Shown: piece after piece, positions 5,612 to 39,169 of the stretch
Numbering within the stretch: position 1 is the first letter of the stretch
How the letters are laid out: each line of letters starts with the position of its first letter
From: Candidatus Hydrogenedens sp.
GTDB taxonomy: Bacteria > Hydrogenedentota > Hydrogenedentia > Hydrogenedentales > Hydrogenedentaceae
Assembly: GCA_049968235.1 (NCBI GenBank)
Contig: JBMFRC010000011.1
Location: forward strand, 1 to 64,000
Direction of reading: 5' to 3'
Length of the DNA: 64,000 nucleotides
Made by a program: the position numbers and the translations under genes
The notes under the pieces: generated by a model
Database searches by the model: none
Seen by the model: only the letters and a program-made list of their open reading frames with translations
Told to the model about the DNA's origin: nothing

Positions 5612-5687
5612 TGGCTCCGCGAGCTGGACTCGAACCAGCGGCCCGGTGGTTAACAGCCACCTGCTCTACCTCCTGAGCTATCGCGGA
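5612..5687 (-). tRNA. tRNA-Asn (anticodon GUU).
   Basis: The reverse complement folds as a cloverleaf. Acceptor UCCGCGA/UCGCGGA, D-stem GCUC/GAGC, anticodon stem GGUGG/CCACC with loop CUGUUAA (GUU), T-arm GCUGG-UUCGAGU-CCAGC, discriminator G, and an encoded CCA. Confidence 0.9.
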
Positions 5688-5933
5688 ACCGATGGATTAA
5701 TATCATATCAGAAATGGCTATTTTTTTTCAAACAGTATAATGAAATGTTATTCCGTTTTATAAGGAATTGAAAAAGATTGTCGCTCTCTGGGAGCAAATA
5801 TAGGTGTGTCTATGTGAGTTTTTTGTTGATAGAATCTATTTTACTCTTATTCCAGTATTTTGGTTTTTAGGGTCTATTTTTTATTGTTTTGGAAGTATGT
5901 TTTTTTTTATGTTATAATTTTTCTGCTTTTAGC

Positions 5934-6025
5934 GGAGAGGTGACCGAGTGGCTTAAGGTGGCGCCCTGCTAAGGCGTTGTACGGCTTAAACCGTACCGCG
6001 GGTTCAAATCCCGCCCTCTCCGCCA
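5934..6025 (+). tRNA. tRNA-Ser (anticodon GCU), type II with a long variable arm.
   Basis: Acceptor GGAGAGG/CCUCUCC, anticodon stem GCGCC/GGCGU with loop CUGCUAA (GCU), long variable arm UGUACGGCUUAAACCGUACC, T-arm GCGGG-UUCAAAU-CCCGC, discriminator G, CCA. Confidence 0.9.
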
Positions 6026-6080
6026 TTGAATATGATGACCTCTTATCCGATATTCCCTTCGGAGATTGAAGAGGGGTTTT

Positions 6081-7649
6081 ATGATTATATCGCGTCGTTC
6101 GTTTTTAAGTTCGGTAGGATTGGGGGTGGGTCTTGTTTATGCTTTTCCTTCTTTAACGGAGGATTTCTCTACAATTCGCAGGTATCATGTTTCTATCTCT
6201 ATTGATGCATTAGAACATGAACCGGATTTGTTTGATATTTTTAAAAGGAGTGGTGTTTCTGCGGTCTGGATTGGTGGTTATTTTTATGGGCATTGGTATT
6301 ATCAACCGGAAGCAATTCGGGCATGGAAAAATAAATTTGAGTCCGCTGGAATATCTGCTTATGTAATTAATGTTCCACTGGGACATCCAGGTGATTCATT
6401 AGGCAGTTATTCAGGGGATGTACCGCTTACTCCGCCGACGCAATGGAAGCCGGGGGTTAGTTATGATATGAAAATGTATGCAGGGACTTCGCTTCATCCA
6501 CCTGCAACCGAAGAGAATGCAAAGGCTTTAGAGGTATTGAATAGTCATGACATTAAAAAGATTTTCCTGGATGATGATTTCCGTTTAGCACGAAGTCCGG
6601 GAATGATTGGTGGATGTTTCTGCAATGAGCATAAAGAGACTTTTTTGAATAAATATGGTTATGGAAACCCAGACTGGGAGGGTCTTATTGATGCGGTTCA
6701 GAAACGAAGTTTAACAAGAATTTTAAGGGAATGGATAGAGTTTACCTGTGATGAACTAACTACCTGTTTTCGCACATTGGAACAACGAGTTCGTGAACTT
6801 GAACTGGGTATTATGGTGATGTATATGGGGAGTGAGAAAGCGGGAATACGATTAAAAGATTATCAGGGATGCTTATTCCGTGTCGGGGAAGGTATGTTTA
6901 ATGACCATAGTTTTGGTAGTGAGAAAGGGAAATGCGATGAATTGTTTAGCGTTTTATTTCATCGTCGATTTGCAACACCTGAAAAAGCATTTAGCGAAAC
7001 GACTGCATTCCCAGCGGATAAATTATCTGCAAGAAACATGTGTGCGAAACTGGTTATCTCAACGATTGCAGATGTGCGGAATACAATGTTTATGAGTGGT
7101 ATTCAGCATTTTCCCAAAGGTCATTGGGATGTTCTTCTGGACGAGATGAAGAAACAAGCCCAATTTCATGAAACTATCGCAGGGCATAAACTTACAGGTC
7201 CGTTAAAACATTATTGGAGTGAGACAAGTAGATATGTTAGCGATGATAATCCATATAGTTTGTTTTTAGCGTTGGGAATTCCATTTGAGGTGGTTGAAGA
7301 ACCGACTAATAAAGGTTGGACTTTTGTTAGTGATTATGATACAGATATTCTCGCACAGAAGGAATGCGTTTATATCTCACGAAGAGAAAAGGAGCATTGT
7401 CTAGAAATCCCAGAAGATTTAAATGCTCTTTTCAAATTTAAGCAATCCATTCTTCCACAATTGAAGAATATTCCATATATTATTGAAGAAAAACCTGTAG
7501 TCTGTGCATGGTATCCAATAGCAAAAAAAGTCATGGTCTGGAATTTATCTGAAAATAGAGAAGATTTCACATTAAAGAGAGATGATAGAGAAATAAATTT
7601 CCAATTGTTGGGGCTGGAATCATCTCTATTAGATGACTTATCGATATAG
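6081..7649 (+). CDS. Tat-signal exported protein of unknown function. It is a candidate carbohydrate-active enzyme, given the sulfatase/DUF1559 neighbourhood.
   Basis: 522-aa ORF with a twin-arginine motif (MIISRRSFLSSVGLGVGLVYA). Start is placed at the ATG with the AGAGGGG ribosome-binding site. The tracked start at 6066 is a TTG. I recognise no domain. Confidence 0.55.
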   Translation: MIISRRSFLSSVGLGVGLVYAFPSLTEDFSTIRRYHVSISIDALEHEPDLFDIFKRSGVSAVWIGGYFYGHWYYQPEAIRAWKNKFESAGISAYVINVPLGHPGDSLGSYSGDVPLTPPTQWKPGVSYDMKMYAGTSLHPPATEENAKALEVLNSHDIKKIFLDDDFRLARSPGMIGGCFCNEHKETFLNKYGYGNPDWEGLIDAVQKRSLTRILREWIEFTCDELTTCFRTLEQRVRELELGIMVMYMGSEKAGIRLKDYQGCLFRVGEGMFNDHSFGSEKGKCDELFSVLFHRRFATPEKAFSETTAFPADKLSARNMCAKLVISTIADVRNTMFMSGIQHFPKGHWDVLLDEMKKQAQFHETIAGHKLTGPLKHYWSETSRYVSDDNPYSLFLALGIPFEVVEEPTNKGWTFVSDYDTDILAQKECVYISRREKEHCLEIPEDLNALFKFKQSILPQLKNIPYIIEEKPVVCAWYPIAKKVMVWNLSENREDFTLKRDDREINFQLLGLESSLLDDLSI

Positions 7650-7790
7650 GGAAAACTCTTCTCTATAAAAACACCCAATTATTCACCTAATTTTAATTAT
7701 TATAATTATTTATCCTTCTTAAAAATAATATTTACAAATATATCTATCTTAATTTTATATCATAATTATCCAATACTATTATTTTTATCC

Positions 7791-7819
7791 TTGACAAAAA
7801 TAAAATTATGTGTTATTAT
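7791..7819 (+). promoter_or_regulatory. Near-consensus sigma70 promoter (TTGACA-N17-TATTAT) upstream of DUF1559 gene copy 1.
   Basis: TTGACA at 7791-7796, a 17-nt spacer, and TATTAT at 7814-7819. The ATG at 7889 has an AAGGAGG Shine-Dalgarno sequence. Confidence 0.5.
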
Positions 7820-7826
7820 AGTTTTG

Positions 7827-7839
7827 GTAATCGTTATAC
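7827..7839 (+). promoter_or_regulatory. LacI/GalR-type operator-like palindrome GTAATCGTTATAC just downstream of the -10 element.
   Basis: Near-palindrome with a central CG. A nearly identical motif (GTAATCGTTTAC on the opposite strand, 31993-32004) sits at the same position relative to the promoter of the second DUF1559 paralog. Confidence 0.35.
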
Positions 7840-7888
7840 CAATATTTACTATTTATCATTTTTAATTTAACATTAAGGAGGCTTAAAT

Positions 7889-8815
7889 ATGCACAGAAAA
7901 GGTTTTACACTCATTGAACTGCTTGTCGTAATTGCCATTATTGGTATTCTTGCGGCAATATTGTTACCTGCTCTTGCTCGTGCCCGTGAGGCGGCTCGCC
8001 GTTCCAGTTGCCAGAATAATTTGAAACAGTGGGGATTGGTCTTTAAAATGTATTCCAATGAATCTAAAGGTGAAAGGTTTCCAAGATTATGTGCTTATTA
8101 CGGAAACCTGGTAAACTGTGATGTAGCTGGATTTCCTGTAACTCATACCAACACTCTAAGGATTGCTGTGGGTCCTTATGTACCTTCGATATTTCCTGAA
8201 TATTTAACAGACCCCAATATTACGCTATGTCCTTCGGATGCAGAAGCCAAACCTGGAGATTTAACAAATCCGATAACGAATCAATCGGAATTCTACCTTG
8301 CGTGCAATAATATGGAAAGAGGTATGTTCCGTATTGACACAAGTTATGCCTACTTAGGCTATGTATTAGACCGGTGTGAAGATACGGATGAACAAATGAA
8401 TTTAGGTATGTTCGACCCTGAGTACTCTGCTTATAATGGTCCTGCCCAATTTGTAATGCTTGCAGCACAGTTATATGCAGCAGCAGAACCTGAGATTCCG
8501 GCAAAAACAGACCAGGATATTACTGTCGGGACACCTTATGGTAATGCAGGTAGTGCAACAGTATATCGGCTTCGTGAAGGAATTGAACGATTTCTTATAA
8601 CGGATATTAATAATCCTGCAGCAACAGCACAGGCACAAAGCAGTGTGTACATTATGTTTGACCTCGTTGCAACAGCGACTCAGGGGTTTAACCATGTCCC
8701 CGGTGGTTGCAATGTGCTGTATATGGATGGGCATGTGGAATTTGTTCGCTATCCGGGTAAAGCACCTGTAAATCAAGGAATTGCCTGGGTCACAACTGCG
8801 GTTGGATTTTCGTAA
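7889..8815 (+). CDS. Prepilin-type N-terminal cleavage/methylation domain protein of the DUF1559 (H-X9-DG) family, copy 1.
   Basis: The N-terminus ([43 protein letters not shown]) is a classic type IV pilin-like methylation motif plus hydrophobic helix. The C-terminal [12 protein letters not shown] is the H-X9-DG signature region. Confidence 0.9.
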
Positions 8816-8840
8816 TCGGTGTATGATATAAAATGATATT

Positions 8841-10250
8841 ATGAAAAGACGCGATTTTATAAAAAGGGCAGTGTTAGGTTTACTAACCTGCCCTACTGTT
8901 TATGCTTCATCAACAAAGCAGGTAAATGTAAGCAGAACATCGAAGACCAAAGCCCCAAAGAATTTTATCTTTATTCTAATGGATGATATGGGCTATGACG
9001 ACCTCAGTTGTTATGGCAATACAAATTATACAACACCTAACCTTGACCAGATGGCGAAGGAAGGGGTTCGTTTTACTGATTTTTATGCCTGTGCCCCTGT
9101 ATGCACTCCGACGCGTGCCTCTGTATTGACGGGATGTTATGCACAGCGAGTTGGTCTACCCCGTGTGTTAGGAAACAATGCACGCACAGGAATTAATCCT
9201 AATGAAGTAACTCTTGCAGAAGCATTAAAAGGTGCAGGGTATAATACTGCTTGTTATGGGAAGTGGCATTTAGGGCATTTACCTCCGTTCCTACCACCAA
9301 ATCATGGTTTTGATGAATATTATGGTCTTCCCTATTCTAATGATATGGGTCCGGATGAAGATGAACCTAATGCACCTCCGTTACCTCTTATCGAAGGGAC
9401 TAAAACTATCGAAGAGAATCCTGACCAATCTAAACTTACTACAGCATATACGGACAGGGCTATTGATTTTATTAAACGAAATAAGGATAATAAATTCTTT
9501 TTATATTTACCCCATACGATGGTGCATGTACCTATTTATGTATCGAAGAAGTTTGAGGGAAAATCGGGTGCAGGGTTATATGGAGATGTAGTTCAAGAAA
9601 TAGATTGGTCTGTAGGCGAAATATTAAATACACTCAAAGAGACAGGTTTATCTGAGGATACGGTGGTCATTTTTACCTCCGATAATGGTCCGTGGTTAAT
9701 TTATGGCAATCATGCAGGAAGTGCAGGTCCATTACGGTGTGGTAAGGGAACTACTTTTGAAGGAGGGATGCGTGTTCCGTGTATTGCATGGTCACCGCAA
9801 TTCATTCCCTCCGGGAAAATTTGTAGCAAAGTAAGTGCTACTTTCGATTTTTATTCCACATTTATTCAACTCGCAAATGCAAATTACCCGAAAACGGATG
9901 TCCGTGATGGGAAAAATATATGGGATTTGTTGGTAAAACCGGACACTAACTCTCCTCATTCTTTCTTCTTGTATTATTTTCATAATGAATTACAAGCCAT
10001 TCGTCAGGGCAAATGGAAACTTCATCTTCCGCATAAATACCAGGAACTTGATTTTCCAGAGAATGACAGGAAACGTGGAAAATATAAAGAAGAAAAGATT
10101 GAGTTATCGCTGTATGATTTAGAAATTGATATTTCGGAAAAAACGAATCTTGCAAGCGAATATCCTGAAAGGGTAGAACAATTAAGAAATATCGCTCTTC
10201 TTTATGATAAGGATTTAAAAGCAAACATCCGTCCTTGTGGGAAAGCATAA
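8841..10250 (+). CDS. Sulfatase (arylsulfatase family) with a Tat/Sec signal.
   Basis: RRDFIKRAVLGL signal. The sulfatase N-terminal signature reads FIFILMDDMGYDDLSCYGN...CAPVCTPTRASVLTG, where C-x-P-x-R is the formylglycine motif. WHLG follows downstream. Confidence 0.9.
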   Translation: MKRRDFIKRAVLGLLTCPTVYASSTKQVNVSRTSKTKAPKNFIFILMDDMGYDDLSCYGNTNYTTPNLDQMAKEGVRFTDFYACAPVCTPTRASVLTGCYAQRVGLPRVLGNNARTGINPNEVTLAEALKGAGYNTACYGKWHLGHLPPFLPPNHGFDEYYGLPYSNDMGPDEDEPNAPPLPLIEGTKTIEENPDQSKLTTAYTDRAIDFIKRNKDNKFFLYLPHTMVHVPIYVSKKFEGKSGAGLYGDVVQEIDWSVGEILNTLKETGLSEDTVVIFTSDNGPWLIYGNHAGSAGPLRCGKGTTFEGGMRVPCIAWSPQFIPSGKICSKVSATFDFYSTFIQLANANYPKTDVRDGKNIWDLLVKPDTNSPHSFFLYYFHNELQAIRQGKWKLHLPHKYQELDFPENDRKRGKYKEEKIELSLYDLEIDISEKTNLASEYPERVEQLRNIALLYDKDLKANIRPCGKA

Positions 10251-10303
10251 AACTTTATCTGAGTTTTTTCTTGTATTCAATTTATTCTCTTTATTTAAAA
10301 ATC

Positions 10304-10341
10304 ATAACGGGCTATTGGAAGTAAATCCTATAGCCCGTTAT
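10304..10341. terminator. Bidirectional intrinsic terminator hairpin between the convergent sulfatase gene and the giant Ig-like protein gene.
   Basis: A 12-bp perfect inverted repeat (ATAACGGGCTAT ... ATAGCCCGTTAT) with a 14-nt loop. It is flanked by an A-rich run upstream and a T-rich run (TTTTCTATTCTAT) downstream. Confidence 0.6.
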
Positions 10342-10361
10342 TTTCTATTCTATATATCTAT

Positions 10362-13300
10362 TTATTTGCGTAAGCATGCCCTCTTGCGTATAACCGTCAT
10401 TACTCCAATAATCGAGGATATAAGAATCATTACAAGCAATCCTGTGCTTGTAGTTGCAGGAATGCCTTTTTCTACTTCCAGTGTAGCAATCGTAGATGTA
10501 ATCGTGTCGTTCTGTCCAGTTACAGAACTACCGCTATCCTGGACCACAACATAATATTGCCCTGAATCTTCATGTTGAGCTGGGTCAATTACCAGTAGAG
10601 GACCTATTGCACCGGGAATAACTTCCCATGCTTTTCCACCGACATTTCGATACCAGGTATAGGTCTTATCACCTAATCCACCGTTCACCTGAACAAACAT
10701 TTCCACCCGTTCACCCGAAGTGGCTCTATATTCAGGCAATAGGTCTTGAATGAAAGATAAATGCAATCCTACTTCTATATTTGCTTTACGAGATTGATAT
10801 AACATTGGAATATCATCTGTTACTTCAAGATAATATTTGTATGTTCCAACTGTCAACGAAGCAGTGTTAACCAATATCTCAAGGGTATTGCCAGCCACCA
10901 CTTCTGTTCCACCTCCGGGTAGGTCGCGTTTCCATTCATAATAGACAGGTGGTAACCCACCTACGAAGTCAGCTGTCAACCAGAATGATGGGTCATTAAT
11001 ATACAATGATTCATCTTCTGGTTGTAATGTAAATATGACTTCACTACTGGCTACACGGAGTAGTACGGGGTCAGATGTAAGTGTGGTATTCAAACCTGTA
11101 ACTGTAGAGGGTTGGTCAGAGATATATACCAGGTATTGATTTCCGTCATAGGTTACATCTACATTGGATAGGAGCAAAGTATTATTATTTACGCCTAACG
11201 AACCCATCCCGATTTGCCACCAATCATAATTATATGGTTCAAATCCACCTACTACTTCTACCTGGAATATTGCATCCTGCCCAGCATACAGATTTAAACT
11301 CTGCGGTTGCGTTACTATTTGTGGTGGGTCAGCCACCTTCACATTAGCAGTCCTCGATGTTACAGGCGGGTTCAATCCACCACTGGAATCGCTTACTATT
11401 ACATAGTAATCGCCCTCATCGGTAGCATCAGCAGAGCCTAAATCAAGCACATTATGCCCTTCTTCAGGACCCAATATACTTTCAGTGCCTTTGAACCATT
11501 CATAGTAGAATGGTGGTTGGCCACCCGTTACATTAGTAATTAATTGCACTGGTGATTCACCTGTATATGCGCGCACATCAGCAGGTCCCTGAACATTGAT
11601 AAAGTTTGTTATTGACAATTTAGCAATGCGAGATGTACCACTTTGCGGTGTGCCACTATCCGTTACCACACAACGATAATACGAATTTTGTAATCCAGAT
11701 AGATGCGCACCTTCCGCAATTTGTATTGTTAAAGTTGATTCATCTGCACCCGATACAATTGAACTTGCATGTAACGGATGCGGTCCATTTGTCAATGTTG
11801 TCCATGGACCACCCTGGTCGGTTGCATATTGCCATTCATAATTTATTGTTGGTATTCCACCTGTCCTTTGAACTGCAAATTGTGCTTGATTGCCCACATT
11901 CTCGATTACATCTGCAGGATGTTCTGTGTCAACTACAAGATTTTCATACACATTTAACACGCCTGCATTTGCTGGATATGCATCCGGATCCGGTCCACTA
12001 TCAACTGCTATACAACGATATGTACCTGTATCACCTACAACAGTGCCATTTATTGTAAACACGGAATTACTAGCACCGCTAACTATTGAAACTCGACCGC
12101 CTAAGTCGCCATCATTTAATGTTACATATCCACTTCCTGTATCCCTTTGCCATGTAAATGTATATGGAGTGGTTCCACCGGAAGCGGTTACAGTTACACT
12201 GTAATTTGAACCCTCATATTGGTTCACCGGACTTGGCGTCGGGTCAGTAATCACAAATGGATTTGTTATCAAAAGTGTAGCATTTTGAGAATCTTCTGTG
12301 GATGGAGCTCCACGATTTTCAGAGTCTGTTACGCGACACTTATATTGACCGGCATCAATTAGACCTAAATTCGATATTGTCAAAGTTGATGTAGAACCTA
12401 CATTGTTTATAGATACTATCGCACCGGAACCTGATGGATGTGGTCCATCCACCAATGGGGTTGTATCATTCCATAACCATTCATAAGTATATGGGGCATA
12501 ACCTCCAGAAATTGTAACACTGAATTGTGCAGAGCCTCCTGTATTCCGATGAATACTTTGCGGTTGTGCGGATATTGCCACTACAGGTTGAACATCTAAA
12601 CTTGAAGGTCCGGCGAATACGGTTTGTCCGCCATCTGAAATGTTGATTGCGGTACCATAGTAATTACCAATCATAGTCTGGTCGAGATTGGGAATATTCA
12701 CAGGATTGGAACCTGAGCCTACAGGAGTTAAACTTCCGCTTCTATCTATATACCACTGATATAAGTAATTGGAACCTGAACCACCGATAAATTTGAAACT
12801 ATAGATAACATTCTCACCAATATATTTTCTTACTGGTGTTGTCAGGTCTACCACAGTTCGCATTACATTGGTATTGATTGTGATAGTTTTTGTTCCTGAA
12901 ATTACCTGATTGGGTGGAGGAGGCGTATCGTTCGGGTCAGTAACAACACAACGATATTGACCATCTTCCTGACCGGGGATAGCATACTCTACGGTCAATT
13001 GATTAGTTGTCGCACCACTTATAACTGTTATTATAGGAGTATTATTGGGACCATCTGAGCCATTCACATTTCTTGGATAACTACCATTAGAAATATTTAC
13101 CCAGGAACCACCTTTAAATATCTGCCATTGATATTGATACGGCGGACCATATCCACCACTGGCGTTAACGGTCATCCGGAATGAACGCCCAAAACCGATG
13201 TATCCATCTGTTAAATTGTTTGCAGTTGGACTGCTAAAATCATCTTCACTAAATGGTGAATCTCTCGGTGGGTCAAACTCTTGTATTGCTATATTACTCA

Positions 13301-15095
13301 CGGCAAGTGGGTTAGGCCAGACATCAATATAATTTGTCTTTGTTTCTGTATCTTCTCCATATTGAGTAACAACTCTTAACCGAACAGTATAAACACCTAC
13401 AGAATTGTATGTCCATTGGGGATTTGTAGGTGTTGTGTAATGAGCATCATCATTACCATCACCATTGAAATCCCAATACCAGTCGGTTATCTGAGTAGTA
13501 TTTTCCGGTAACTGGTCTGGAATAGATGAATCTGTAAATGTAACAGTCAAAGGATATTGTCCCTGGGTAGGTGCTGCTGAAAAATCTGCTGTTGGTGGAG
13601 TATGCACTACAATATAATTTGTTTTTGTCTCATTGTCATTTCCTTCGGCTGTTTGAACAGTCAGAGATACTGTATATCTACCTGCAGTATTATACTGATG
13701 ACTCGGATTCTGCTGATTACTTGTTCCACTATCACCGAAGTTCCATGCCCATGTTGTTTCTGCCCACAAGCCAAAAGTATCCGATGAATCAGTAAACTGA
13801 ACGGATTGTCCTGCTAATATCTCCACAGGTGTCGCAGAGAAATCTGCTACAGGTGTCGCTACATTTTCATACGCTCCCATATCTACAGCAGAGCCATTTT
13901 TCCTCTGGAAATTACGAATATCAACTCGCCCGGGTGCTAGAGGTGGTTGAACAAGACCATCAGCCCCTGTATCTAAACATGGGGATATTGGTGATGGGAA
14001 AGTAACTGTCAAACGAAAATCATTATTCCCTGGATTCCGGAATAATGGGTCCGAATTAATATTTCCAGTTCCTACATGTCCTCCCTGTACATCAGAATAC
14101 TGTACATCTGCATTTACATATCCAAGGCCGGGTCTAAAGGTTCTAATATGAGGATTTGACGGTACAGGATTATTCCACAATATAGTGTTATAAATTTTTG
14201 GGAAATTAACTCCACATCCACTATTCATTATAGTATTAGCATTATATAATTGAGGATTAGACAAATTAGCCGAAGTGTTATTATAAAAGGTACAATTAGT
14301 AATATATGTCTCATTTCCTATTTCTACATTTGAGGAATTGATTCCATTGTTAAAAATTCCAGCACCGCCACGAATCGGGGAAACGCCGGTATCTACTGTT
14401 TCATTGCACGTATTGCCACGGAAGACGCAATCATGGATTAATGCACTTGCCTTGTAAATATTAGAACCAACAGTCCCGGACATGTTTGCAATCGCACCAC
14501 CTGCTGTTGCAGAAACATTATCGTAGAAAACACAATTACCTATCACTGGTGCTGATAACCAGTTATATATGCCTGCGCCACGCCAGGTATGGTAATCTCC
14601 TGCAACGCCCGAAGCACGACCACCACGTATGTGGAAGCCATCAATTACTACATCCGTATTGGGACCACTTCCCTTTCCTATGACGATTACATGATATGCA
14701 TTCGTGCCACCTCTTGAAGTTCTTCCATCAATAGTCGTTACATATTGTGAAGGTCTTCTCTGGTCTCGAGAAGTCTCTGTTCCCTTAAATCCACCATAAA
14801 GATGGACATTATCTTCCATAACCAATGAGCCATCCACCAAAGCAGGTGCACCCCAAGTTGCTGTTCTTAGTTCATCGTAATTCCCCTGAGCCACCCAAAC
14901 CTCCACAGGATTTCCAGGAGATGCTTGTGCATTAGCAGTGTCAATTCCTTCCTGAATTGTGCGAAATGCTTTAGCCCATGAACTACCATCCGGGGATGGG
15001 TCTGTGCTTGCTTTATTCACATATACTACTGCAAAAGCGTAGTTTGTCAGCAAGCATAAAACCAATAAAGACCACTTTAACTTGCTTTTCATCAT
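10362..15095 (-). CDS. Giant (~1577 aa) secreted adhesin-like protein. It has an N-terminal right-handed beta-helix region, two PKD domains, then more than 8 Ig-like domains with the G-x-Y-(R/K)-C-x-V-(T/S)-D motif. The C-terminus looks like a sorting signal: IPATTSTG, then a TM helix, then a basic tail.
   Basis: Signal peptide MMKSKLKWSLLVLCLLTNYAFA, with an AGGAGA Shine-Dalgarno sequence before the internal ATG. Beta-helix-type repeats (GNCVFYDNVSATAGGAI, HDCVFRGNTC, NCTFYNNTSA). PKD motifs (WNFGDSG...SHQYNTAGRYTVSLTV; WYWDFNGDGNDDAHYT...YNSVGVYTVRLRV). Recurrent Ig-like motifs (GQYRCVVTD, GQYKCRVTD, GTYRCIAVD, YYRCVVTD). C-terminus is GIPATTSTGLLVMILISSIIGVMTVIRKRACLRK. Confidence 0.8.
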   Translation of the reverse strand: MMKSKLKWSLLVLCLLTNYAFAVVYVNKASTDPSPDGSSWAKAFRTIQEGIDTANAQASPGNPVEVWVAQGNYDELRTATWGAPALVDGSLVMEDNVHLYGGFKGTETSRDQRRPSQYVTTIDGRTSRGGTNAYHVIVIGKGSGPNTDVVIDGFHIRGGRASGVAGDYHTWRGAGIYNWLSAPVIGNCVFYDNVSATAGGAIANMSGTVGSNIYKASALIHDCVFRGNTCNETVDTGVSPIRGGAGIFNNGINSSNVEIGNETYITNCTFYNNTSANLSNPQLYNANTIMNSGCGVNFPKIYNTILWNNPVPSNPHIRTFRPGLGYVNADVQYSDVQGGHVGTGNINSDPLFRNPGNNDFRLTVTFPSPISPCLDTGADGLVQPPLAPGRVDIRNFQRKNGSAVDMGAYENVATPVADFSATPVEILAGQSVQFTDSSDTFGLWAETTWAWNFGDSGTSNQQNPSHQYNTAGRYTVSLTVQTAEGNDNETKTNYIVVHTPPTADFSAAPTQGQYPLTVTFTDSSIPDQLPENTTQITDWYWDFNGDGNDDAHYTTPTNPQWTYNSVGVYTVRLRVVTQYGEDTETKTNYIDVWPNPLAVSNIAIQEFDPPRDSPFSEDDFSSPTANNLTDGYIGFGRSFRMTVNASGGYGPPYQYQWQIFKGGSWVNISNGSYPRNVNGSDGPNNTPIITVISGATTNQLTVEYAIPGQEDGQYRCVVTDPNDTPPPPNQVISGTKTITINTNVMRTVVDLTTPVRKYIGENVIYSFKFIGGSGSNYLYQWYIDRSGSLTPVGSGSNPVNIPNLDQTMIGNYYGTAINISDGGQTVFAGPSSLDVQPVVAISAQPQSIHRNTGGSAQFSVTISGGYAPYTYEWLWNDTTPLVDGPHPSGSGAIVSINNVGSTSTLTISNLGLIDAGQYKCRVTDSENRGAPSTEDSQNATLLITNPFVITDPTPSPVNQYEGSNYSVTVTASGGTTPYTFTWQRDTGSGYVTLNDGDLGGRVSIVSGASNSVFTINGTVVGDTGTYRCIAVDSGPDPDAYPANAGVLNVYENLVVDTEHPADVIENVGNQAQFAVQRTGGIPTINYEWQYATDQGGPWTTLTNGPHPLHASSIVSGADESTLTIQIAEGAHLSGLQNSYYRCVVTDSGTPQSGTSRIAKLSITNFINVQGPADVRAYTGESPVQLITNVTGGQPPFYYEWFKGTESILGPEEGHNVLDLGSADATDEGDYYVIVSDSSGGLNPPVTSRTANVKVADPPQIVTQPQSLNLYAGQDAIFQVEVVGGFEPYNYDWWQIGMGSLGVNNNTLLLSNVDVTYDGNQYLVYISDQPSTVTGLNTTLTSDPVLLRVASSEVIFTLQPEDESLYINDPSFWLTADFVGGLPPVYYEWKRDLPGGGTEVVAGNTLEILVNTASLTVGTYKYYLEVTDDIPMLYQSRKANIEVGLHLSFIQDLLPEYRATSGERVEMFVQVNGGLGDKTYTWYRNVGGKAWEVIPGAIGPLLVIDPAQHEDSGQYYVVVQDSGSSVTGQNDTITSTIATLEVEKGIPATTSTGLLVMILISSIIGVMTVIRKRACLRK

Positions 15096-15249
15096 ATACT
15101 GTCTCCTCATAGTGTTTTTATTATAGATTAAAACGCATTTATTAGTTATTTCACTTTTCTTTACATTTTAATGATAATTTTTTATCTTGTCTAAATTATA
15201 ACATGTAAAGCAATAAAAATCAAGAATATTTAATACTATATTTATATAA

Positions 15250-15285
15250 ATATAGTGGGCTGAAAATTATTCAACCCACTATATT
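15250..15285 (-). terminator. Putative intrinsic terminator hairpin downstream of the LRR/InlB-repeat giant gene.
   Basis: Inverted repeat AATATAGTGGG(C)TG ... CA(A)CCCACTATATT of about 12 bp, followed on the minus strand by an AU-rich tract. Confidence 0.4.
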
Positions 15286-15305
15286 ATCTTTATCAAGAAG
15301 ATTCA

Positions 15306-18300
15306 TTATGGTTGAGTACCGGGACAATAACCATCTTCACTACCTTCACACGGGTAATAACCACCGGAATTGAAGAATTGTATTAGACGGAGCAATTCAC
15401 TCAAAGATATTACCCAATCTTGTGGATTATAGTCAGAAGCATGTGGGTTACAGGAATGGTCGCCGGGTCCGGGAGCATATCCATCTTCACCCTGTGGGTC
15501 GCAGTGATATTCATTAAAGTTGAAGAACTGAATAACACGCAATAGTTCCGTTAAATTAATCTTTCCATCTCCATTCTGGTCAGCATTGTGAGGAGGTATT
15601 TCTCCTTCTGGAGTCCCTTCTGGAGTCCCTTCTGGAGTCCCTTCTGGAGTTCCTTCTGGTGTCCCTTCTCCTTCAGGTGGAATTTGAATAAAGATAACAC
15701 CGATTGTTCTGTTCCTGTCCATAGGAACCGTGATTTCAGGTTGCTCAATATTCGCAATTCCTTCTGTATCACCTGTCCATGCACCGAACATCCAGCCGTT
15801 AGCAGGCTGAGCAATAACAGTCTGAGTTTGACCCTCCAGAAATAGATATTCGTTACCTGGAAGTGGAGATGTAGTTCCCTGTCCTTCAACGACATTCAGC
15901 AGTAATTTATAATATACCTGCGGAGCAAATTTCGCTACTAATTGCATGTCTTCACTCAAAACTGTACCAAAAATAGGATTTGATGTAATTAGTGTGTTAC
16001 CGGAATACCACCCTTTGAATACCTGACCTTCACCGGGAACTGCTGTTAATTGAAGCGGGAAATTATTTGATAGTAGATATACATCTGCTAATAAAATTTC
16101 TTCTTCGCCTATAAATACAGTTCCATCGCCTTCTATCTGGAAATCAAATTTCCTACCTTCATTGTCAAAATGCGCTATCATATCATAATGTCCGTTAACA
16201 GTAACTGTTGCGGAATACCAATAAACCCAAGTTGTCTCGGGATTATTATTAGGGTTCTTTATCAATTCCCATCCACCGAAATAATCTTCGGTTTCCGCAT
16301 ATAAACTTAATTGTTTGCCATTAATATAGCAATACGCTCCTGGTCTTGGGGATGTTTCTCCGGTTCCGTTTCCGGCAGTAGTAATGTTCACATTCCAATC
16401 ACAAGGTTCAAATACCGCTATAATCGATAGGCTTTCCTGAACTTGAAGTATTAACACATCATCTGTGCTTATAATTTCATTATCATCAGTTATCCAGTGT
16501 TTTAACGCCCATCCTGAATCAGGATATGCTATATAGTATATCCATTCTCCACCTATATATCCGTAGATACCAGGGACGGGATTTGTTGTTCCATTACCCT
16601 GTGTACTTAACTCTATTGTATATACAGCATCTACGAAACGGGCTACAAGATTACGGTCAGAAGTTACCTGGAAAGAATAAAATGGCCATTCATTTACTAA
16701 TTCGTTGTTTTCATACCAACCCGCAAATGCTTTTCCTGAATCAGGAATGGCTGTAAAGAATGCCCATTGTCCATCAAAGTAGTAATAATTTCCCGGTACT
16801 GGGTTAGTGGTTCCTGGTCCGTCCACAGATATTACTACGGTATAGTCCGTCTCTCTGAAATTTGCAGTTATTACTTTATTTGCATTCATCACAACCTGTA
16901 TAGGATTATCTTGTGGATTTGCTCCTCCTATATCACCACTCCAACCATTAAATACCCAACCCTCCTCAGGATTTGCTGTAATAAGAACAACCTGACCTTC
17001 TGTCTTCTGATATATACCTGGGACGGGGTCAGTCGTTCCTGAACCATTTACATTTATAGTTAAAGTATAGGTTGGTACAGATGTAAAAACGGCACGAATC
17101 GTCATATCTTCTGTTATTTCTACATTTATAGGATTATCTGTTCCTAAATTATTACTATTACCATCTTCCCAATGGTCAAACAGATAACCTGCATCTGGAA
17201 ATGCTGAAATGCTAACGAACGAACCCTGAGCATATTGATATGTCCCTTGATATGGAGATGTAAACCCGTTCCCTATTACTTCTATTTTTAATTGATAGCA
17301 TTGATTGGAGAATATAGCACCAACTGTCTTGTCACTATCCATTACTATATTAGCAAAAGGAGAAGAGCCGAAAGACTGGGCATCTTCTGTCCATCCTCCA
17401 AAGCATGAACCTGTATCCGGTAATGCATATAAATATACCCATTGATTATCTTTAAATGAATAATTACCATTTCCATCATAGAATGGGATAATGGTACCTG
17501 TACCTGTGTTGGATGGGTCAAATGCAAATGTTAATGTATATGTGCCAGGGACAAAAACAGCCTTCACTAAAATATTTTCCTGAACATTATCAAAGAGATA
17601 ACTATAACTATCTGTTAAAAATACATATCCTGCTTTTGCGTTCTCATCCCAAATTTCCCAGTGGTCAAAAGCATAGCCACTATCTGCTTGAGGATATGCT
17701 AAAATAATAAAATCACTATTGATTTCGACTGTATTTACTCCTACTTGAGGTAAAACCTTTCCAATACCTTCCACTTCAATGGTTACGGTTACCTCACATA
17801 CTCCTTCACGAGTTACTACACCACTAGGTTTCACTTTTTGAACCAGTTGGTCGACTAAATAACAAAGTTCCGTAGGAACGGGATTGTACCTAAGGTCAAT
17901 ATAGTCACCATCACCAATTCCTTCGTTGTCTAACAGAAACCCAAAATTCTCTATGTTATTATTGTCCAGATAAACATATTTTAATGCGGTATAGTTTTTT
18001 AAAGGACTTATATCAGAAACCACGTTATTACTTAGATTTAACATTTCTAGAGTTCCTACAGGAGATCCTGAATTGCTTAACCCATATATATTGTTAATTT
18101 GATTCATTGACGCATCTAATGCTACAAGATTAGGCATCATTTCTATACCGGAAAGATTGGTTAATGAATTATCACTTACATTCAACCCTATCAAAGAATT
18201 AAAGGTAAATGGATCTTTTACTGTGAACAATGAAGGACCAATATTATTCCCAGGCAAATTTGCAATCGTTAAACCGTTTAATCCTACAAGACTGTTGATA

Positions 18301-26509: not shown

Positions 26510-27094
26510 ATGAATCGTGAACAAAAAGCGTTTACAACATTTGAAGCGGCAAGGATATGTCATGTAACCCACCATAGTATAAAGAATTGGATTCGTCAGG
26601 GTCTGATAAAAGCATCGCGAACACCTGGAGGACATTATCGTATTCTTGAAAAAGACCTGGATGAATTTAGAGAAAAGTATGATATGTTTCCAAGGGACAA
26701 AAACGCCAAAAAGTATCGTATTATGGTGGTTGATGATGACCCCGACGCGATAAATCTTATTGAGAACATGTTGGGTAAAGATGAGTATGAAATTATAAAA
26801 GTAAATAACGCTACAGAAGTTGGCTTAAAAGCAATCCAATTATCTCCCGACCTTATATTGCTTGATTTCTTAATGCCAGAAATCAATGGTTTTGAAGTAT
26901 GCCGTGCATTAAGGAGTAACGATATGACTCGTTTTATTCCGATTATGGCGGTAACATGCTTAACTAAAGATTCTGACATTGAACGGATATTCGCTTGTGG
27001 TGCGGATGAATATCTTGCAAAGCCTTTTAAAGTTGACCAATTATTGGAAAAAGTTAAAGAGTTGGTTACTAAAGGTCGACCCGTCCAAAAATAA
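26510..27094 (+). CDS. Response regulator with an N-terminal excisionase/MerR-type HTH (HTH_17-like) and a C-terminal receiver (REC) domain.
   Basis: HTH reads TTFEAARICHVTHHSIKNWIRQGLIKASRTPGGHYRI. REC reads RIMVVDDDPDAI...LILLDFLMPEINGFEVCRALR...IMAVT...LAKPF. A strong AAGGAGG Shine-Dalgarno sequence lies upstream. Confidence 0.85.
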   Translation: MNREQKAFTTFEAARICHVTHHSIKNWIRQGLIKASRTPGGHYRILEKDLDEFREKYDMFPRDKNAKKYRIMVVDDDPDAINLIENMLGKDEYEIIKVNNATEVGLKAIQLSPDLILLDFLMPEINGFEVCRALRSNDMTRFIPIMAVTCLTKDSDIERIFACGADEYLAKPFKVDQLLEKVKELVTKGRPVQK

Positions 27095-27158
27095 CATTTA
27101 AGAATAAACATATATTGTAGGATGCCAGGGGAAATTATTCTCTCTTGGCAAATACTTC

Positions 27159-30775: not shown

Positions 30776-31843
30776 CTACTCCATGTAAGAATCGAAAAAG
30801 CGATATGAGGGTTCAATTTCCCTATCACGAGTTCGTTCTGTATCCAATATGGGGTTAAATAAAACTTGTATAGGTCCTTCCAGTTTCCCTTCTAACCATC
30901 TTGCTAATAGTTCTAAACCTTCTGATGCCGATTCACGAACAGGTAACCAAACATGGGCTGAAGCCTCATGAAGAACGTAGCCTTTACTTTCATAGGTCCA
31001 TGTTAGAACTTCACAGTCTTTTTCGATGGTTCTTCCTGCTCTTTTAAATCCCTCCCGAATGGCTTCACCATTTTCTGTTCCGCTACTATCAATTAATGCA
31101 GTAATGTTAGAGTCCGATAGAAGTTGATGGATTCGTAGTGCAACATTTCTTGCACCAAAGTTTACATGTTTTATATTTCTTTCAGAGAAAGGCAGGTTTG
31201 CCTCTTCCAGTGCTTTCTTGTAACCTCGAATTCTTTCTACACCGGGTTGATATTCATGAAAAGCCTGCAATAAAGCGATATGTTTATGCCCTTTATCTAT
31301 TAAGAATTTTGTACTTATATAAGATGCTTTTTCATAGTCAACTGTGGCATAGGATAAATCTGGAAACGATTCCAATCTACCAAAGGCTATATAAGGAATG
31401 CCTGAGGTATGAATTCTTTTTGCAATCACATCAGACAATGAAAAAGGACCTGCAATAATACATGACTTAAAAAGATTATCGAAAACACCTCGGGCATAAT
31501 TTTCTATTTTTCCCAGTTCATAAGGGGACATATCAAAGCAAATATACTCCCCCTTTTTCCCAAATATTCGATATAACTCCATAAAAAGCCATAGAAAAAA
31601 GTTGGGGCTAAAAGGGACAATCTCTATGGGTGCAGGAAAAGTAACTCCAACACATGCAGGTTGATTGGCTCTCAATGAACGAGCAAAAATATTGGGATAG
31701 TAACCTAATTTTTCAACTATTTCAAGGACTTTTTTCCGAGTTTCTTCTTTGACGCCGTCTTTAAAATTAATAACCTTACTTACTGTTTTTGCAGATACAC
31801 CCGCCATTTTTGCGATGTCATAAATGGTTATCTTCTCGAACAT
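30776..31843 (-). CDS. LacI-family transcriptional regulator.
   Basis: N-terminal HTH reads ITIYDIAKMAGVSAKTVSKVINFKDGVKEETRKKVLEIVEKLGYYPNIFARSLR, followed by a periplasmic-binding-protein-like effector domain. A GGGAG Shine-Dalgarno sequence lies upstream. Confidence 0.9.
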   Translation of the reverse strand: MFEKITIYDIAKMAGVSAKTVSKVINFKDGVKEETRKKVLEIVEKLGYYPNIFARSLRANQPACVGVTFPAPIEIVPFSPNFFLWLFMELYRIFGKKGEYICFDMSPYELGKIENYARGVFDNLFKSCIIAGPFSLSDVIAKRIHTSGIPYIAFGRLESFPDLSYATVDYEKASYISTKFLIDKGHKHIALLQAFHEYQPGVERIRGYKKALEEANLPFSERNIKHVNFGARNVALRIHQLLSDSNITALIDSSGTENGEAIREGFKRAGRTIEKDCEVLTWTYESKGYVLHEASAHVWLPVRESASEGLELLARWLEGKLEGPIQVLFNPILDTERTRDREIEPSYRFFDSYME

Positions 31844-31952
31844 AGGAAACTCCCTTTTAGTAATCGTTTACTATAATTATAGCAAAAAATTTTTTTGTTT
31901 TCATTTATTTTTTGATTAATTTTATATTAATAGAGAAAAAATAAAAATTAAT

Positions 31953-31981
31953 TTGATATTTGTAAACATATAATATATAAT
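31953..31981 (+). promoter_or_regulatory. Near-consensus sigma70 promoter (TTGATA-N17-TATAAT) upstream of DUF1559 gene copy 2. It is divergent from the LacI-family gene.
   Basis: TTGATA at 31953-31958, a 17-nt spacer containing TGTAAAC, and TATAAT at 31976-31981. Confidence 0.5.
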
Positions 31982-31992
31982 ATAGGTATAAA

Positions 31993-32023
31993 GTAAACGA
32001 TTACTTCAATGGGCGAAGTAATC
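31993..32023 (+). promoter_or_regulatory. LacI-type operator-like near-palindrome GTAAACGATTAC (31993-32004). It overlaps a perfect 9-bp stem hairpin (GATTACTTC-AATGGGC-GAAGTAATC, 31999-32023) in the 5' UTR.
   Basis: The half-sites GTAAAC/GTAATC flank a central CG, typical of LacI/GalR operators. The motif is essentially identical, as a reverse complement, to the one downstream of the copy-1 promoter (7827-7839). The hairpin arms are read directly from the sequence. Confidence 0.35.
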
Positions 32024-32061: not shown

Positions 32062-33045
32062 ATGAAGAAAAAAGGTTTCACACTCATCGAACTGCTGGTC
32101 GTTATTGCAATCATTGGCATCCTCGCTGCAATATTGTTACCAGCACTGGCACGGGCACGCGAAGCGGCAAGACGCTCCAGCTGCCAGAACAATTTAAAAC
32201 AATGGGGTCTCGTTTTCAAAATGTATTCTAACGAGGCGAAGGGAGAACGGTTTCCTCCCATTCAGGCAGGTGGTTATAAGAATGTAAATGGGCAACTTAA
32301 ACCTGTTTTAGATGCAGGACCCAATGTATTTGTTCTGTATCCGGAATATCTGACGGACCCCATGATTATCTTTTGTCCATCGGATGCAGAATTAGGTCAA
32401 TCTATTGCCAAAGCACATCTCAATGGGGATGTTAATCAAGATTGGTGTATTGGTTATGCGGATAGCAATGGTGGAAATTGTGCGCGTGCCATTGACGCGA
32501 GTTATGGCTATTTAGGTTGGGTTTTAGATAAAGGGAATTGTCCCCCGCAAGACCCCGTATCTACGCTTAGCAGTTTTACCTATTTAGGCACGATTGCGTC
32601 ATTCCTTGGTGTAACAATTGACATGAACACCGAAGTTTCTACACAAGTTGGTTCAGCACTGGATTATTTGGTTCAACAAATATTGCCATTATTGAGTGGA
32701 AGTAGTATTCCCAATGGAATTCTTCCCATAGCTGACAATGATATACCTGTTCCTAATGGTGTAGGAAACGGTGGTGGTTCTACTGTATATCGTCTTCGTG
32801 AAGGTATTGAACGTTTCTTGATCACAGACATTAACAATCCAGCAGCATCAGCACAAGCCCAAAGTTCCGTATGGATTATGTTTGACCAGTTATCAACCAA
32901 TCCTGCGGCATACAACCATATTCCCGGAGGTTCAAATGTGTTATACATGGATGGTCATGTGCAGTTCCAGAGATATGGTGAATGTGAACCTGCTCCTGTG
33001 AATAAGCCTATGGCAGTCCTTGTGGGTATTTTGACCTCCAATTAG
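32062..33045 (+). CDS. Prepilin-type N-terminal cleavage/methylation domain protein of the DUF1559 (H-X9-DG) family, copy 2. It is a paralog of 7889..8815.
   Basis: The first ~60 aa ([54 protein letters not shown]) are identical to copy 1, although the nucleotides diverge synonymously. The C-terminus ([34 protein letters not shown]...[11 protein letters not shown]) is conserved and the middle segment is divergent. Confidence 0.9.
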
Positions 33046-33074: not shown

Positions 33075-33112
33075 AGCGTCGGTATCTAATGGATATCGAC
33101 GCTAATTTTTTT
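33075..33112. terminator. Bidirectional intrinsic terminator between convergent genes (DUF1559 copy 2 and an oxidoreductase).
   Basis: Stem AGCGTCG...CGACGCT (7 bp perfect, extendable to about 11 with one mismatch). It is preceded by AAAAAA and followed by TTTTTTT. Confidence 0.7.
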
Positions 33113-39141: not shown

Positions 39142-39169
39142 TAACCCAAAAAGAAAAGGAGAAAGAATA

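What the first reader, a model, noticed from the sequence alone, without database searches (positions are those of the whole stretch)
7791..7840. Same promoter-operator architecture upstream of the first DUF1559 paralog, 24 kb away
TTGACA-N17-TATTAT at 7791-7819 is followed within about 10 nt by GTAATCGTTATAC at 7827-7839. This matches the reverse complement of the copy-2 operator (GTAATCGTTTAC) at 12 of 13 positions. The two paralogous genes have identical N-terminal 60 aa and conserved C-termini but divergent central regions. This suggests two functional variants co-regulated by one repressor. Copy 1 is followed 25 bp later by a sulfatase gene, probably an operon.
Basis: seen in the sequence. 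Interest (0 to 1): 0.6.

Follow-up and report, generated by a model that had tools for sequence, protein, structure and literature searches.

The report
LacI operator upstream of DUF1559 gene
The short motif just after the promoter of this pilin-like (DUF1559) gene is a slightly off-spec binding site for a LacI-type sugar repressor encoded 24 kb away beside the second copy, an ordinary repressor-operator switch that gives a first regulatory clue to a large protein family of unknown function.

Summary
In detail: TTGACA-N17-TATTAT (7791-7819), then GTAATCGTTATAC (7827-7839). It matches the copy-2 motif 12/13 only with a 1-nt gap.

The gene divergent from copy 2 (30776-31843, minus strand) is a LacI-family regulator. 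Two identical 14-mers, AGTAAACGATTACT, sit just after the -10 boxes of its own promoter and of the copy-2 promoter.

The organism is a Candidatus Hydrogenedens. The LacI/DUF1559 divergent pair, with GTAAnCGnTTAC palindromes, recurs in Hydrogenedentota genomes of 34-71% GC. Operator type changes together with the recognition helix.

Six of nine distinct copy-1 orthologous promoters carry a LacI-type site at the same position. Three have canonical spacing. Three, including this window, have one extra base, and the window adds one arm mismatch.

On a position-weight matrix alone the window site is only about 9th best in 64 kb. The support comes from orthologs, not from the local match.

Most other DUF1559 paralog promoters lack the motif.

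DUF1559-sulfatase synteny is conserved, with no intervening terminator.

Verdict: a new regulon of a well-known mechanism. Co-regulation is plausible (about 0.65) but binding is untested.

The parts
7791..7819 (+). Sigma-70-type promoter of the copy-1 operon: -35 TTGACA (7791-7796), 17-nt spacer, TG-extended -10 TATTAT (7814-7819)
   Evidence: 11/12 matches plus TG. The -35 is identical in six orthologous promoters and the -10 is 80% identical, against 33-49% in the flanks.
7826..7840 (.). Putative LacI-type operator O_c1, GGTAATCGTTATACC. The left half and central CG are perfect. The arms are 5 nt apart instead of 4, and the right arm has one mismatch. It is embedded in the inverted repeat TTGGTA-N7-TACCAA (7824-7842). 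It would cover about -1 to +14 of the inferred transcription start.
   Evidence: Orthologs at the same position: GGTAATCGTTTTACC (L081, L085), GGTAATCGTTTACT (L084, L161), GGTTATCGATTACC (L166). L081 versus L085: 15/15 identical against 45% in the flanks.
7875..7881 (+). Ribosome-binding site AAGGAGG of copy 1
   Evidence: Read from the sequence. AAGGAG is conserved in orthologs.
7889..8815 (+). DUF1559 copy 1 (308 aa): a pilin-like protein with a prepilin cleavage/methylation N-terminus and an H-X9-DG C-terminal motif
8841..10250 (+). S1 (formylglycine-type) sulfatase with a Tat-like signal (MKRRDFIK) and a CTPTR active-site motif. Probably co-transcribed with copy 1.
   Evidence: Pfam Sulfatase 2.6e-64. 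The closest solved structures are GalNAc-6-sulfatase, arylsulfatase A and carrageenan sulfatases. Synteny holds in all orthologs and no terminator lies in the gap.
30776..31843 (-). LacI-family transcription regulator (355 aa), the candidate repressor of copy 1, copy 2 and itself. It is the only LacI-family gene in the window.
   Evidence: Pfam LacI HTH 2.3e-18 plus Peripla_BP_1/3. The best solved relatives are CcpA and PurR. It is the only hit of the LacI HMM in the six-frame ORFs.
31859..31872 (.). Operator O_lacI, AGTAATCGTTTACT, 4 nt 3' of the -10 box of the lacI promoter (minus strand, 31904-31876)
   Evidence: Conserved in L001, L004, L026, L142, L173.
31953..31981 (+). Promoter of copy 2: TTGATA-N17-TATAAT
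   Evidence: 11/12 matches. Conserved in alignment A3.
31992..32005 (.). Operator O_c2, AGTAAACGATTACT, the exact reverse complement of O_lacI, 11 nt 3' of the -10 box
   Evidence: GTAAACGATTAC is invariant in 6/6 orthologous intergenic regions.
32062..33045 (+). DUF1559 copy 2 (327 aa), followed by a strong terminator-like hairpin at 33075-33103

Best explanation
The 7791-7840 segment is a sigma-70-type promoter followed by an operator for a LacI-family repressor.

The repressor is most likely the one encoded at 30776-31843, divergently from DUF1559 copy 2. As a dimer it would bind palindromes of the form RGTAAnCGnTTACY that overlap the transcription start. That would block RNA polymerase at three promoters: its own, copy 2, and the copy-1/sulfatase operon. 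An unknown, probably carbohydrate-derived, effector would release it.

The copy-1 operator in this genome is a variant. Its arms are one base further apart (GGTAA-N5-aTACC instead of GGTAA-N4-TTAC) and one arm carries a mismatch. It should therefore bind more weakly, making copy 1 and the sulfatase leakier or easier to induce than copy 2.

What is shown:
- the sequence features and their positions;
- the family of the regulator;
- conservation of the regulator/target pairing and of the sites.

What is inferred:
- the transcription starts;
- binding itself, its strength and the direction of regulation;
- co-transcription with the sulfatase;
- the effector.
For: 1. The regulator has a LacI HTH plus a periplasmic-binding-protein-like effector domain. 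It carries the hinge 'ARSLR' typical of family members that insert into a central CpG.
2. Two identical 14-mers with a central CG lie 4 and 11 nt 3' of the -10 boxes of the divergent lacI and copy-2 promoters. The copy-1 site lies 6 nt 3' of its -10 box.
3. In 20 of 29 Hydrogenedentota loci holding an ortholog of this LacI, the gene is divergent from a DUF1559 gene, across 34-71% GC. GTAAnCGnTTAC palindromes lie between them.
4. Specificity co-varies. Regulators with VSAKTVS go with GTAAnCGnTTAC. All four with VSANTVS go with TTATCGATAA.
5. In 492 kb of independent DUF1559-anchored loci, canonical sites of at least 17 bits number 8, against 0.3 in shuffles. In the wider 838-kb scan of all Hydrogenedentota loci fetched, the sites of at least 13 bits lie almost only next to LacI or upstream of DUF1559 genes.
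6. Copy-1 orthologs in the same synteny carry a site at the same position in 6 of 9 distinct promoters. Three have canonical spacing. L081 and L085 share the 15-mer 15/15 while their flanks are 45% identical.
7. LacI-adjacent DUF1559 genes are copy-1-like in L165 and L030. Both paralog lineages therefore belong to this regulator's neighbourhood.
8. The closest reference genome yielded a single locus for this LacI subfamily. The window has one LacI gene.
9. [quoted passage not shown] The copy-1 site is 49-63 bp upstream.
Against: - The window's site is weak by the family's own matrix: 6.6 bits, about 9th in 64 kb.
- Odd-spaced sites as a class are not enriched in related loci (5 observed against 1.9 expected, with a maximum of 5 in shuffles).
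- Spacing is usually constant within one LacI orthologous group (PMC4052901).
- Three orthologous promoters have lost the site (L083, L168, L169), so regulation of copy 1 is dispensable in some lineages.
- There are no expression or binding data. The rest of the genome was not available to exclude another regulator.
Confidence: 0.65

Rival explanations
1. Relic operator. The site descends from a functional LacI operator. The 1-nt insertion, plus the T-to-A change in this genome, has abolished binding. Copy 1 and the sulfatase are now constitutive or under other control.
For: The spacing rule is broken and the PWM score is low. Spacing is normally fixed within an orthologous group. L083 looks like a further-decayed odd-spaced site, and L168 and L169 have none.
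Against: The odd-spaced 15-mer is 15/15 identical between L081 and L085, and 14/15 to the window, while flanks are 45-52% identical. That argues for continued selection after the insertion. The left half plus CG remains perfect. From my own knowledge, natural lac operators are also odd-spaced and still function.
Confidence: 0.17
2. A real operator, but for a different regulator encoded outside the window, such as another LacI-family protein preferring odd-spaced palindromes.
For: The odd spacing differs from the two canonical sites next to the LacI gene. Only 64 kb of the genome was seen.
Against: Three copy-1 orthologs carry the canonical N4 site, or a one-mismatch version of it, and it is the same motif as the one next to LacI. 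The closest reference genome gave only one locus of this LacI subfamily. Among 80 DUF1559 loci, the only LacI-family genes nearby belong to this subfamily.
Confidence: 0.1
3. The inverted repeat acts as RNA: a 5'-terminal stem-loop of the copy-1 mRNA affecting stability or translation, not a protein-binding DNA site.
For: TTGGTA...TACCAA can form a 6-bp stem at the predicted 5' end. Copy 2 has a clearly stable 5'UTR hairpin (z = -4.07).
Against: The copy-1 leader folds no better than shuffles (z = -1.2). What is conserved is the specific LacI-type sequence, including the loop CG, not merely pairing potential. N4 orthologs change the stem and loop geometry.
Confidence: 0.04
4. Chance resemblance in an AT-rich intergenic region.
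For: Promoter-like hexamers are no commoner than in shuffles (15 against 12.6). Matches to the 13-mer with up to 3 mismatches are at chance level (28 against 22.9). The PWM rank is unremarkable.
Against: The site is positionally conserved in 6 of 9 distinct orthologous promoters amid diverged flanks. The half-site 8-mer is rare in the window.
Confidence: 0.04

Closest known systems
E. coli LacI with its natural operators (lacO1 and others)
   Same: A homodimeric HTH repressor with a sugar-binding core. A pseudo-palindromic operator overlaps the transcription start just 3' of the -10 box. There are several operators per regulon. From my own knowledge, natural lac operators have an extra central base pair relative to the tighter-binding symmetric operator. 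That parallels the N5 versus N4 sites here.
   Different: Only about 25-30% identical, with family-level hits only. No C-terminal tetramerisation heptad is evident. The targets are pilin-like proteins and a sulfatase, not catabolic enzymes or a permease. The effector is unknown.
CcpA / cre (Bacillota catabolite control)
   Same: It is the best-scoring characterised relative (TIGR01481 at 7.5e-31; PDB 3oqm at 3e-30). By my comparison, the operator AGTAAACGATTACT matches the cre consensus TGWAANCGNTNWCA at 12/14.
   Different: The score of 107.8 bits is far below the equivalog cut-off of 442. This is a local regulator placed divergently from its target and autoregulated, not a global HPr-Ser-P-dependent regulator.
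Local LacI-family sugar regulons reconstructed by comparative genomics (Ravcheev et al. 2014, PMC4052901)
   Same: An even palindrome with a central CG. [quoted passage not shown] The regulator is adjacent to its target and autoregulated. Regulon membership varies between species.
   Different: The phylum Hydrogenedentota and DUF1559 targets did not come up in what I read. The same putative regulator would use both even and odd spacing, which that survey calls rare.
DUF1559 (PF07596) / H-X9-DG pilin-like paralog family of Planctomycetes
   Same: The same N-terminal prepilin motif, Pfam family and C-terminal H-X9-DG motif. It is a large paralog family of unknown function (PMC10632474, PMC2754498).
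   Different: Here the genes are in Hydrogenedentota. A subset is tied to a dedicated LacI-type regulator and, for copy 1, to a sulfatase. None of the four papers that mention DUF1559 reports such a link.

Membership tests
LacI-family repressor/operator system | N-terminal LacI-type helix-turn-helix plus hinge | tested here: met
   PF00356 at 2.3e-18, residues 6-51. The hinge ARSLR is conserved.
LacI-family repressor/operator system | Periplasmic-binding-protein-like effector domain | tested here: met
   PF00532 at 1.3e-7 and PF13377 at 1.4e-7. Aligns to CcpA over residues 4-303.
LacI-family repressor/operator system | Palindromic operator of even length with a central CG | tested here: met
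   Applies to the sites next to the regulator: AGTAATCGTTTACT and AGTAAACGATTACT at 31859-31872 and 31992-32005. Criterion from PMC4052901.
LacI-family repressor/operator system | The same palindrome geometry at the copy-1 site (7826-7840) | tested here: inconclusive
   The central CG and left half are perfect. The arms are N5 instead of N4 and one arm has a mismatch. Orthologs have N4 (L084, L161, L166) or N5 (L081, L085).
LacI-family repressor/operator system | Site conserved upstream of orthologous targets (phylogenetic footprint) | tested here: met
   All copy-2 orthologs examined keep the site. So do 6 of 9 distinct copy-1 orthologous promoters.
LacI-family repressor/operator system | Physical binding of the repressor and release by an effector | not testable with these tools
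   Needs EMSA or footprinting and ligand screening.
CcpA (catabolite control protein A) equivalog | Score above the NCBIfam TIGR01481 cut-off | tested here: not met
   107.8 bits against a cut-off of 442.35.
Sigma-70-type promoter | -35 and -10 hexamers at 16-18 nt spacing, conserved in orthologs | tested here: met
   TTGACA-17-TATTAT, 11/12 matches plus TG. The -35 is identical and the -10 is 80% identical in six orthologs.
Sigma-70-type promoter | Mapped transcription start | not testable with these tools
   Needs 5'RACE or dRNA-seq.
DUF1559 / type IV pilin-like proteins | Prepilin cleavage/methylation motif (G|FTLIE) and hydrophobic alpha-1 helix | tested here: met
   [not shown]
DUF1559 / type IV pilin-like proteins | PF07596 and the C-terminal H-X9-DG motif | tested here: met
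   PF07596 at 37 bits against 23.3. TIGR04294 at 28.7 bits against 19.
S1 formylglycine sulfatases | Sulfatase domain and C-x-P-x-R motif | tested here: met
   PF00884 at 2.6e-64. CTPTR is visible in the translation. GalNAc-6-sulfatase 4fdi at 2.9e-75.
Operon (copy 1 + sulfatase) | Same strand, short gap, no terminator, conserved adjacency | tested here: met
   The gap is 25 nt. No terminator-like site lies in it. Adjacency holds in L081-L085, L161, L166 and L170-172, and the gaps there (44-85 nt) fold only weakly, apart from a moderate hairpin in L083 (-13 kcal/mol).
Operon (copy 1 + sulfatase) | Co-transcription | not testable with these tools
   Needs RT-PCR across 8815-8841 or RNA-seq.

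The most novel reading that the evidence does not exclude
In Hydrogenedentota, and perhaps in other DUF1559-rich phyla, a dedicated subfamily of LacI-type sugar sensors controls specific DUF1559 pilin-like paralogs. That would mean these proteins are substrate-inducible components of a glycan capture or uptake apparatus. Paralogs would be tuned to different polysaccharides, here a sulfated one given the co-transcribed sulfatase. The even versus odd operator spacing would be a selected device giving the two paralogs different induction thresholds under a single repressor.
Probability: 0.2. Interest if true: 0.7.

Novelty: new member of a known kind. Interest (0 to 1): 0.45.

Why it matters
DUF1559 is the largest paralog family in several Planctomycetes genomes: 68 copies in Planctopirus limnophila and 74 in Rhodopirellula baltica. 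Its function is unknown.

A LacI-type regulator wired to particular DUF1559 genes and conserved across a phylum, with a carbohydrate-type sulfatase in the same operon, is a concrete and testable hint. It suggests that at least some of these pilin-like proteins respond to sugars.

It also offers a simple experimental handle. One small repressor and three short operators can be tested in E. coli or in vitro for an uncultured phylum. The natural pair of even- and odd-spaced operators allows study of spacing tolerance in a LacI-family protein.

The mechanism itself is textbook.

Tried and rejected
- Mismatch searches for the 12-mer and 13-mer in the window gave chance-level counts apart from the three sites. 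The bare similarity is not significant.
- I tested whether the motif is a general DUF1559 promoter feature. Only 8 of 71 paralog upstream regions have it. Other paralogs carry unrelated palindromes. The idea is rejected: the motif is regulon-specific.
- A half-site PWM allowing 0 or 1 extra central base ranks the window's copy-1 site low. Odd-spaced sites are not enriched in related loci. The odd-spaced class cannot be supported statistically, only by position and conservation.
- No second, auxiliary operator lies within 400 nt upstream of copy 1 in the window. Among the orthologs only weak extra hits turned up: L169 at -141 (10.4 bits) and L166 at +20 (8.5 bits).
- The RNA-structure reading of the copy-1 leader is not better than shuffles. 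Rfam finds nothing but two tRNAs in the window.
- Recent gene conversion as the cause of the identical N-termini is rejected: nucleotide identity is 78% with many synonymous changes.
- More distant copy-1-like genes (P0128 at 73%, P0129 at 68%) have no site and a different gene context.
- Literature searches for DUF1559, H-X9-DG, Hydrogenedentes plus LacI, and Hydrogenedentota plus pilin found nothing on regulation.

Full report
**Observation**

One search confirms the features at the stated coordinates:
- TTGACA at 7791-7796;
- a 17-nt spacer;
- TATTAT at 7814-7819, preceded by TGT (an extended -10);
- GTAATCGTTATAC at 7827-7839.

The motif is the core of a longer inverted repeat, TTGGTA-N7-TACCAA (7824-7842). 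The consensus scan ranks this hexamer pair best in 7400-10500 (11/12 plus TG). Promoter-like matches as such are no commoner than in shuffles (15 against 12.6).

The copy-2 motif GTAATCGTTTAC occurs twice, at 31860-31871 (+) and as its reverse complement at 31993-32004. The '12 of 13' match needs a one-base gap; ungapped it is 9/13.

The two DUF1559 proteins are 52% identical overall. Residues 4-58 are identical (57/60 in the first 60). They share a conserved C-terminal block and have a divergent middle. The sulfatase ATG is 25 nt after the copy-1 stop. These are the only two DUF1559 genes in the window.

**The missing component**

The 355-aa gene divergent from copy 2 (30776-31843, minus strand) is a LacI-family regulator.
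- It has LacI HTH 2.3e-18 plus Peripla_BP_1/3.
- Its closest characterised relatives are CcpA and PurR, far below any equivalog cut-off.
- It is the only LacI-family gene in the window.

The 218-nt intergenic region holds two identical 14-mers with a central CG. AGTAATCGTTTACT (31859-31872) lies 4 nt after the -10 box of the minus-strand lacI promoter. AGTAAACGATTACT (31992-32005) lies 11 nt after the -10 box of the copy-2 promoter TTGATA-17-TATAAT.

This is the standard layout of an autoregulated local LacI-family repressor. [quoted passage not shown]

**Organism and conservation of the regulator-target pair**

Homologs of the regulator are all from Candidatus Hydrogenedentes/Hydrogenedentota. 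Copy 1 is 100% identical to a protein of an NCBI 'Candidatus Hydrogenedens sp.' MAG (P0121). The nearest named genome is Ca. Hydrogenedens terephthalaticus (L001, 90%).
- In 20 of 29 orthologous loci (GC 34-71%), the LacI gene is divergent from a DUF1559 gene with the same N-terminus. GTAAnCGnTTAC palindromes lie in between.
- The four regulators whose recognition helix reads VSANTVS instead of VSAKTVS are accompanied by TTATCGATAA palindromes instead. This is the kind of protein-site co-variation expected if these proteins bind these sites.
- Alignment of the lacI/copy-2 intergenic region from six genomes shows the -35, the -10 and both operators as conserved islands.
- A half-site matrix trained only on other genomes finds canonical sites of at least 17 bits 8 times in 492 kb of independent loci, against 0.3 in shuffles.
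- In the wider 838-kb scan, nearly all sites of at least 13 bits are next to LacI or upstream of DUF1559 genes.
- Several genomes have LacI followed by two tandem DUF1559 genes, each with its own operator pair (L007, L030, L003, L152).
- Among 80 DUF1559 paralog loci, the only LacI-family genes nearby belong to this same subfamily.

**The copy-1 site itself**

The metagenome scan and contig look-ups gave nine distinct orthologous promoters, including the window's own. All the fetched orthologs with enough downstream sequence show the same DUF1559-sulfatase-large Ig/PKD gene synteny. The site directly 3' of the -10 box reads as follows:

| Locus | Site | Type |
|---|---|---|
| window | GGTAATCGTTATACC | N5, one arm mismatch |
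| L081, L085 | GGTAATCGTTTTACC | N5 |
| L084, L161 | GGTAATCGTTTACT | canonical N4 |
| L166 | GGTTATCGATTACC | N4, one arm mismatch |
| L083 | AGTAAGCATTTTCCC | decayed |
| L169 | no clear site | decayed |
| L168 | none | absent |

- Among the six promoters with a site, the -35 is 100% identical and the -10 is 80% identical. The left nine operator bases are 93% identical and the right five 83%, against 33-49% in the flanks. These six were selected for having a site.
- L081 and L085 share the odd-spaced 15-mer 15/15 with 45% identical flanks. The window matches them 14/15. This argues that the odd-spaced version is itself under selection.
- L173/L174 carry a LacI that is 84% identical to the window's. 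That LacI (P0002) and the L081-type copy 1 (P0122) list the same longest contig, 55,151 nt, so they are probably from one genome. L173/L174 have canonical N4 operators at lacI and copy 2. The even/odd pair therefore probably exists in more than one genome.
- LacI-adjacent DUF1559 genes are copy-1-like in L165 (64%) and L030 (58%), and copy-2-like in L003 and L007. Both paralog lineages belong to this regulator's sphere.

**Limits**

- On its own the window's site is weak: 6.6 bits, about 9th in 64 kb, against 21.1 for the canonical sites.
- Odd-spaced sites are not enriched as a class (5 against 1.9 expected).
- The motif is not a general DUF1559 promoter feature (8 of 71). Other paralogs have other palindromes.
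- The half-site 8-mer is rare (10 occurrences on both strands, 4 of them in the canonical operators). By my arithmetic that gives roughly 0.003 for one in a given 30-nt stretch.
- No auxiliary site lies upstream of copy 1 in the window.

**Regulated genes**

- Copy 1 and copy 2 carry the prepilin cleavage/methylation motif, PF07596 and the H-X9-DG motif.
- The identical N-termini reflect purifying selection (78% nucleotide identity) and are phylum-wide.
- The downstream gene is an S1 sulfatase with a Tat-like signal and a CTPTR motif. It is closest to GalNAc-6-sulfatase, arylsulfatase A and carrageenan sulfatases.
- No terminator lies between copy 1 and the sulfatase in the window or the orthologs. 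L083 alone has a moderate hairpin in the gap.
- Copy 2 is followed by a strong terminator-like hairpin.

**Mechanism and rivals**

Best-supported reading (0.65): one LacI-family dimer represses its own gene, copy 2 and the copy-1/sulfatase operon. It does so by occupying operators over the transcription start, and an unknown sugar-type ligand relieves it. O_c1 would be a lower-affinity, odd-spaced variant.

| Rival | Confidence |
|---|---|
| The site is a relic no longer bound | 0.17 |
| It is bound by another regulator outside the window | 0.10 |
| It acts as an RNA hairpin (leader fold z = -1.2) | 0.04 |
| Chance | 0.04 |

**Comparison and novelty**

It works like lacI/lacO, with an operator over +1. 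From my own knowledge, natural lac operators are odd-spaced and weaker than the symmetric one. It also works like the local sugar regulons catalogued in PMC4052901.

It meets the tested defining features of the LacI family. Only the geometry of O_c1 is inconclusive. It is not a CcpA equivalog (107.8 against 442 bits).

The regulon content is, as far as the searchable literature shows, undescribed. Only four papers mention DUF1559, and none covers regulation. Searches combining Hydrogenedentes with LacI or pilin found nothing relevant.

Hence: a new member of a known kind, of moderate interest. Its main value is as a handle on the function of DUF1559 proteins.

Noticed in passing
window 31999-32023: A stable hairpin in the copy-2 5' leader (GATTACTTC-N7-GAAGTAATC) overlaps the right half of the copy-2 operator. 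Its 3' arm contains a third GTAATC half-site. RNA fold z = -4.07. It is kept in 7 of 8 orthologs with only one-sided (wobble) changes and no compensatory pairs. It could be an mRNA 5' stabiliser or an extra repressor half-site.
   Followed up: partly
L006, L013, L015, L019 versus the other LacI orthologs (L001-L030): The recognition-helix change VSAKTVS to VSANTVS goes with an operator change from GTAAnCGnTTAC to TTATCGATAA. This is a clean natural specificity switch within one LacI subfamily.
   Followed up: partly
L007 3316-5945; L030 302-2246; L003 28-1634; L152 116-2021; L151 3494-5713: In several Hydrogenedentota genomes the LacI gene is followed by two tandem DUF1559 genes. In most of these each gene has its own pair of operators about 110-280 bp apart. 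In the window's lineage the second paralog sits 24 kb away with a sulfatase.
   Followed up: partly
L087, L092, L095, L097, L099, L155 (150 nt upstream of the DUF1559 start): Other Hydrogenedens DUF1559 paralogs have strong promoters followed by different palindromes or hairpins. Examples are AATTGGTTCCACCAATT twice in L155 and a conserved leader hairpin in L095/L097/L099. This suggests separate regulators for separate paralogs.
   Followed up: no
window 6066-7649 (+): A 527-aa protein with a Tat-type signal (SRRSFL) and no Pfam or NCBIfam hit. It is the conserved upstream neighbour of copy 1 in L081, L083, L085 and L170-172. In L161 and L166 it is replaced by an AP_endonuc_2 gene.
   Followed up: partly
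window 39542-39556: GGTAAACAAATTACC is the third-best PWM hit in the window (13.8 bits, odd spacing, no central CG). It lies inside the Pyr_redox_2 (dihydrolipoyl-dehydrogenase-like) gene at 39074-40558. It is probably chance.
   Followed up: no
window 8812-8818: A further GTAATCG half-site spans the copy-1 stop codon (TCG TAA TCG). TAATCG recurs at the stop in L085 and L161. Its significance is unknown.
   Followed up: no
window 26510-30770: A MerR-HTH/receiver protein (26510-27094) and a 1203-aa hybrid histidine kinase (27159-30770) end 6 nt from the LacI stop, convergently. Kinase-LacI adjacency is kept in L001, L002, L004, L026, L142, L151 and L173.
   Followed up: no
[not shown]
   Followed up: partly
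window 10362-19268 (-), 54456-57824 (-): Very large surface-type proteins flank the locus: 1582 aa with PKD/Ig repeats, convergent on the sulfatase and syntenic in all copy-1 orthologs; 1320 aa with LRR plus InlB B-repeats; and 1122 aa with EF-hand repeats.
   Followed up: no
window 5612-6025: tRNA-Asn (minus strand) and tRNA-Ser (plus strand) lie just upstream of the 527-aa gene.
   Followed up: no
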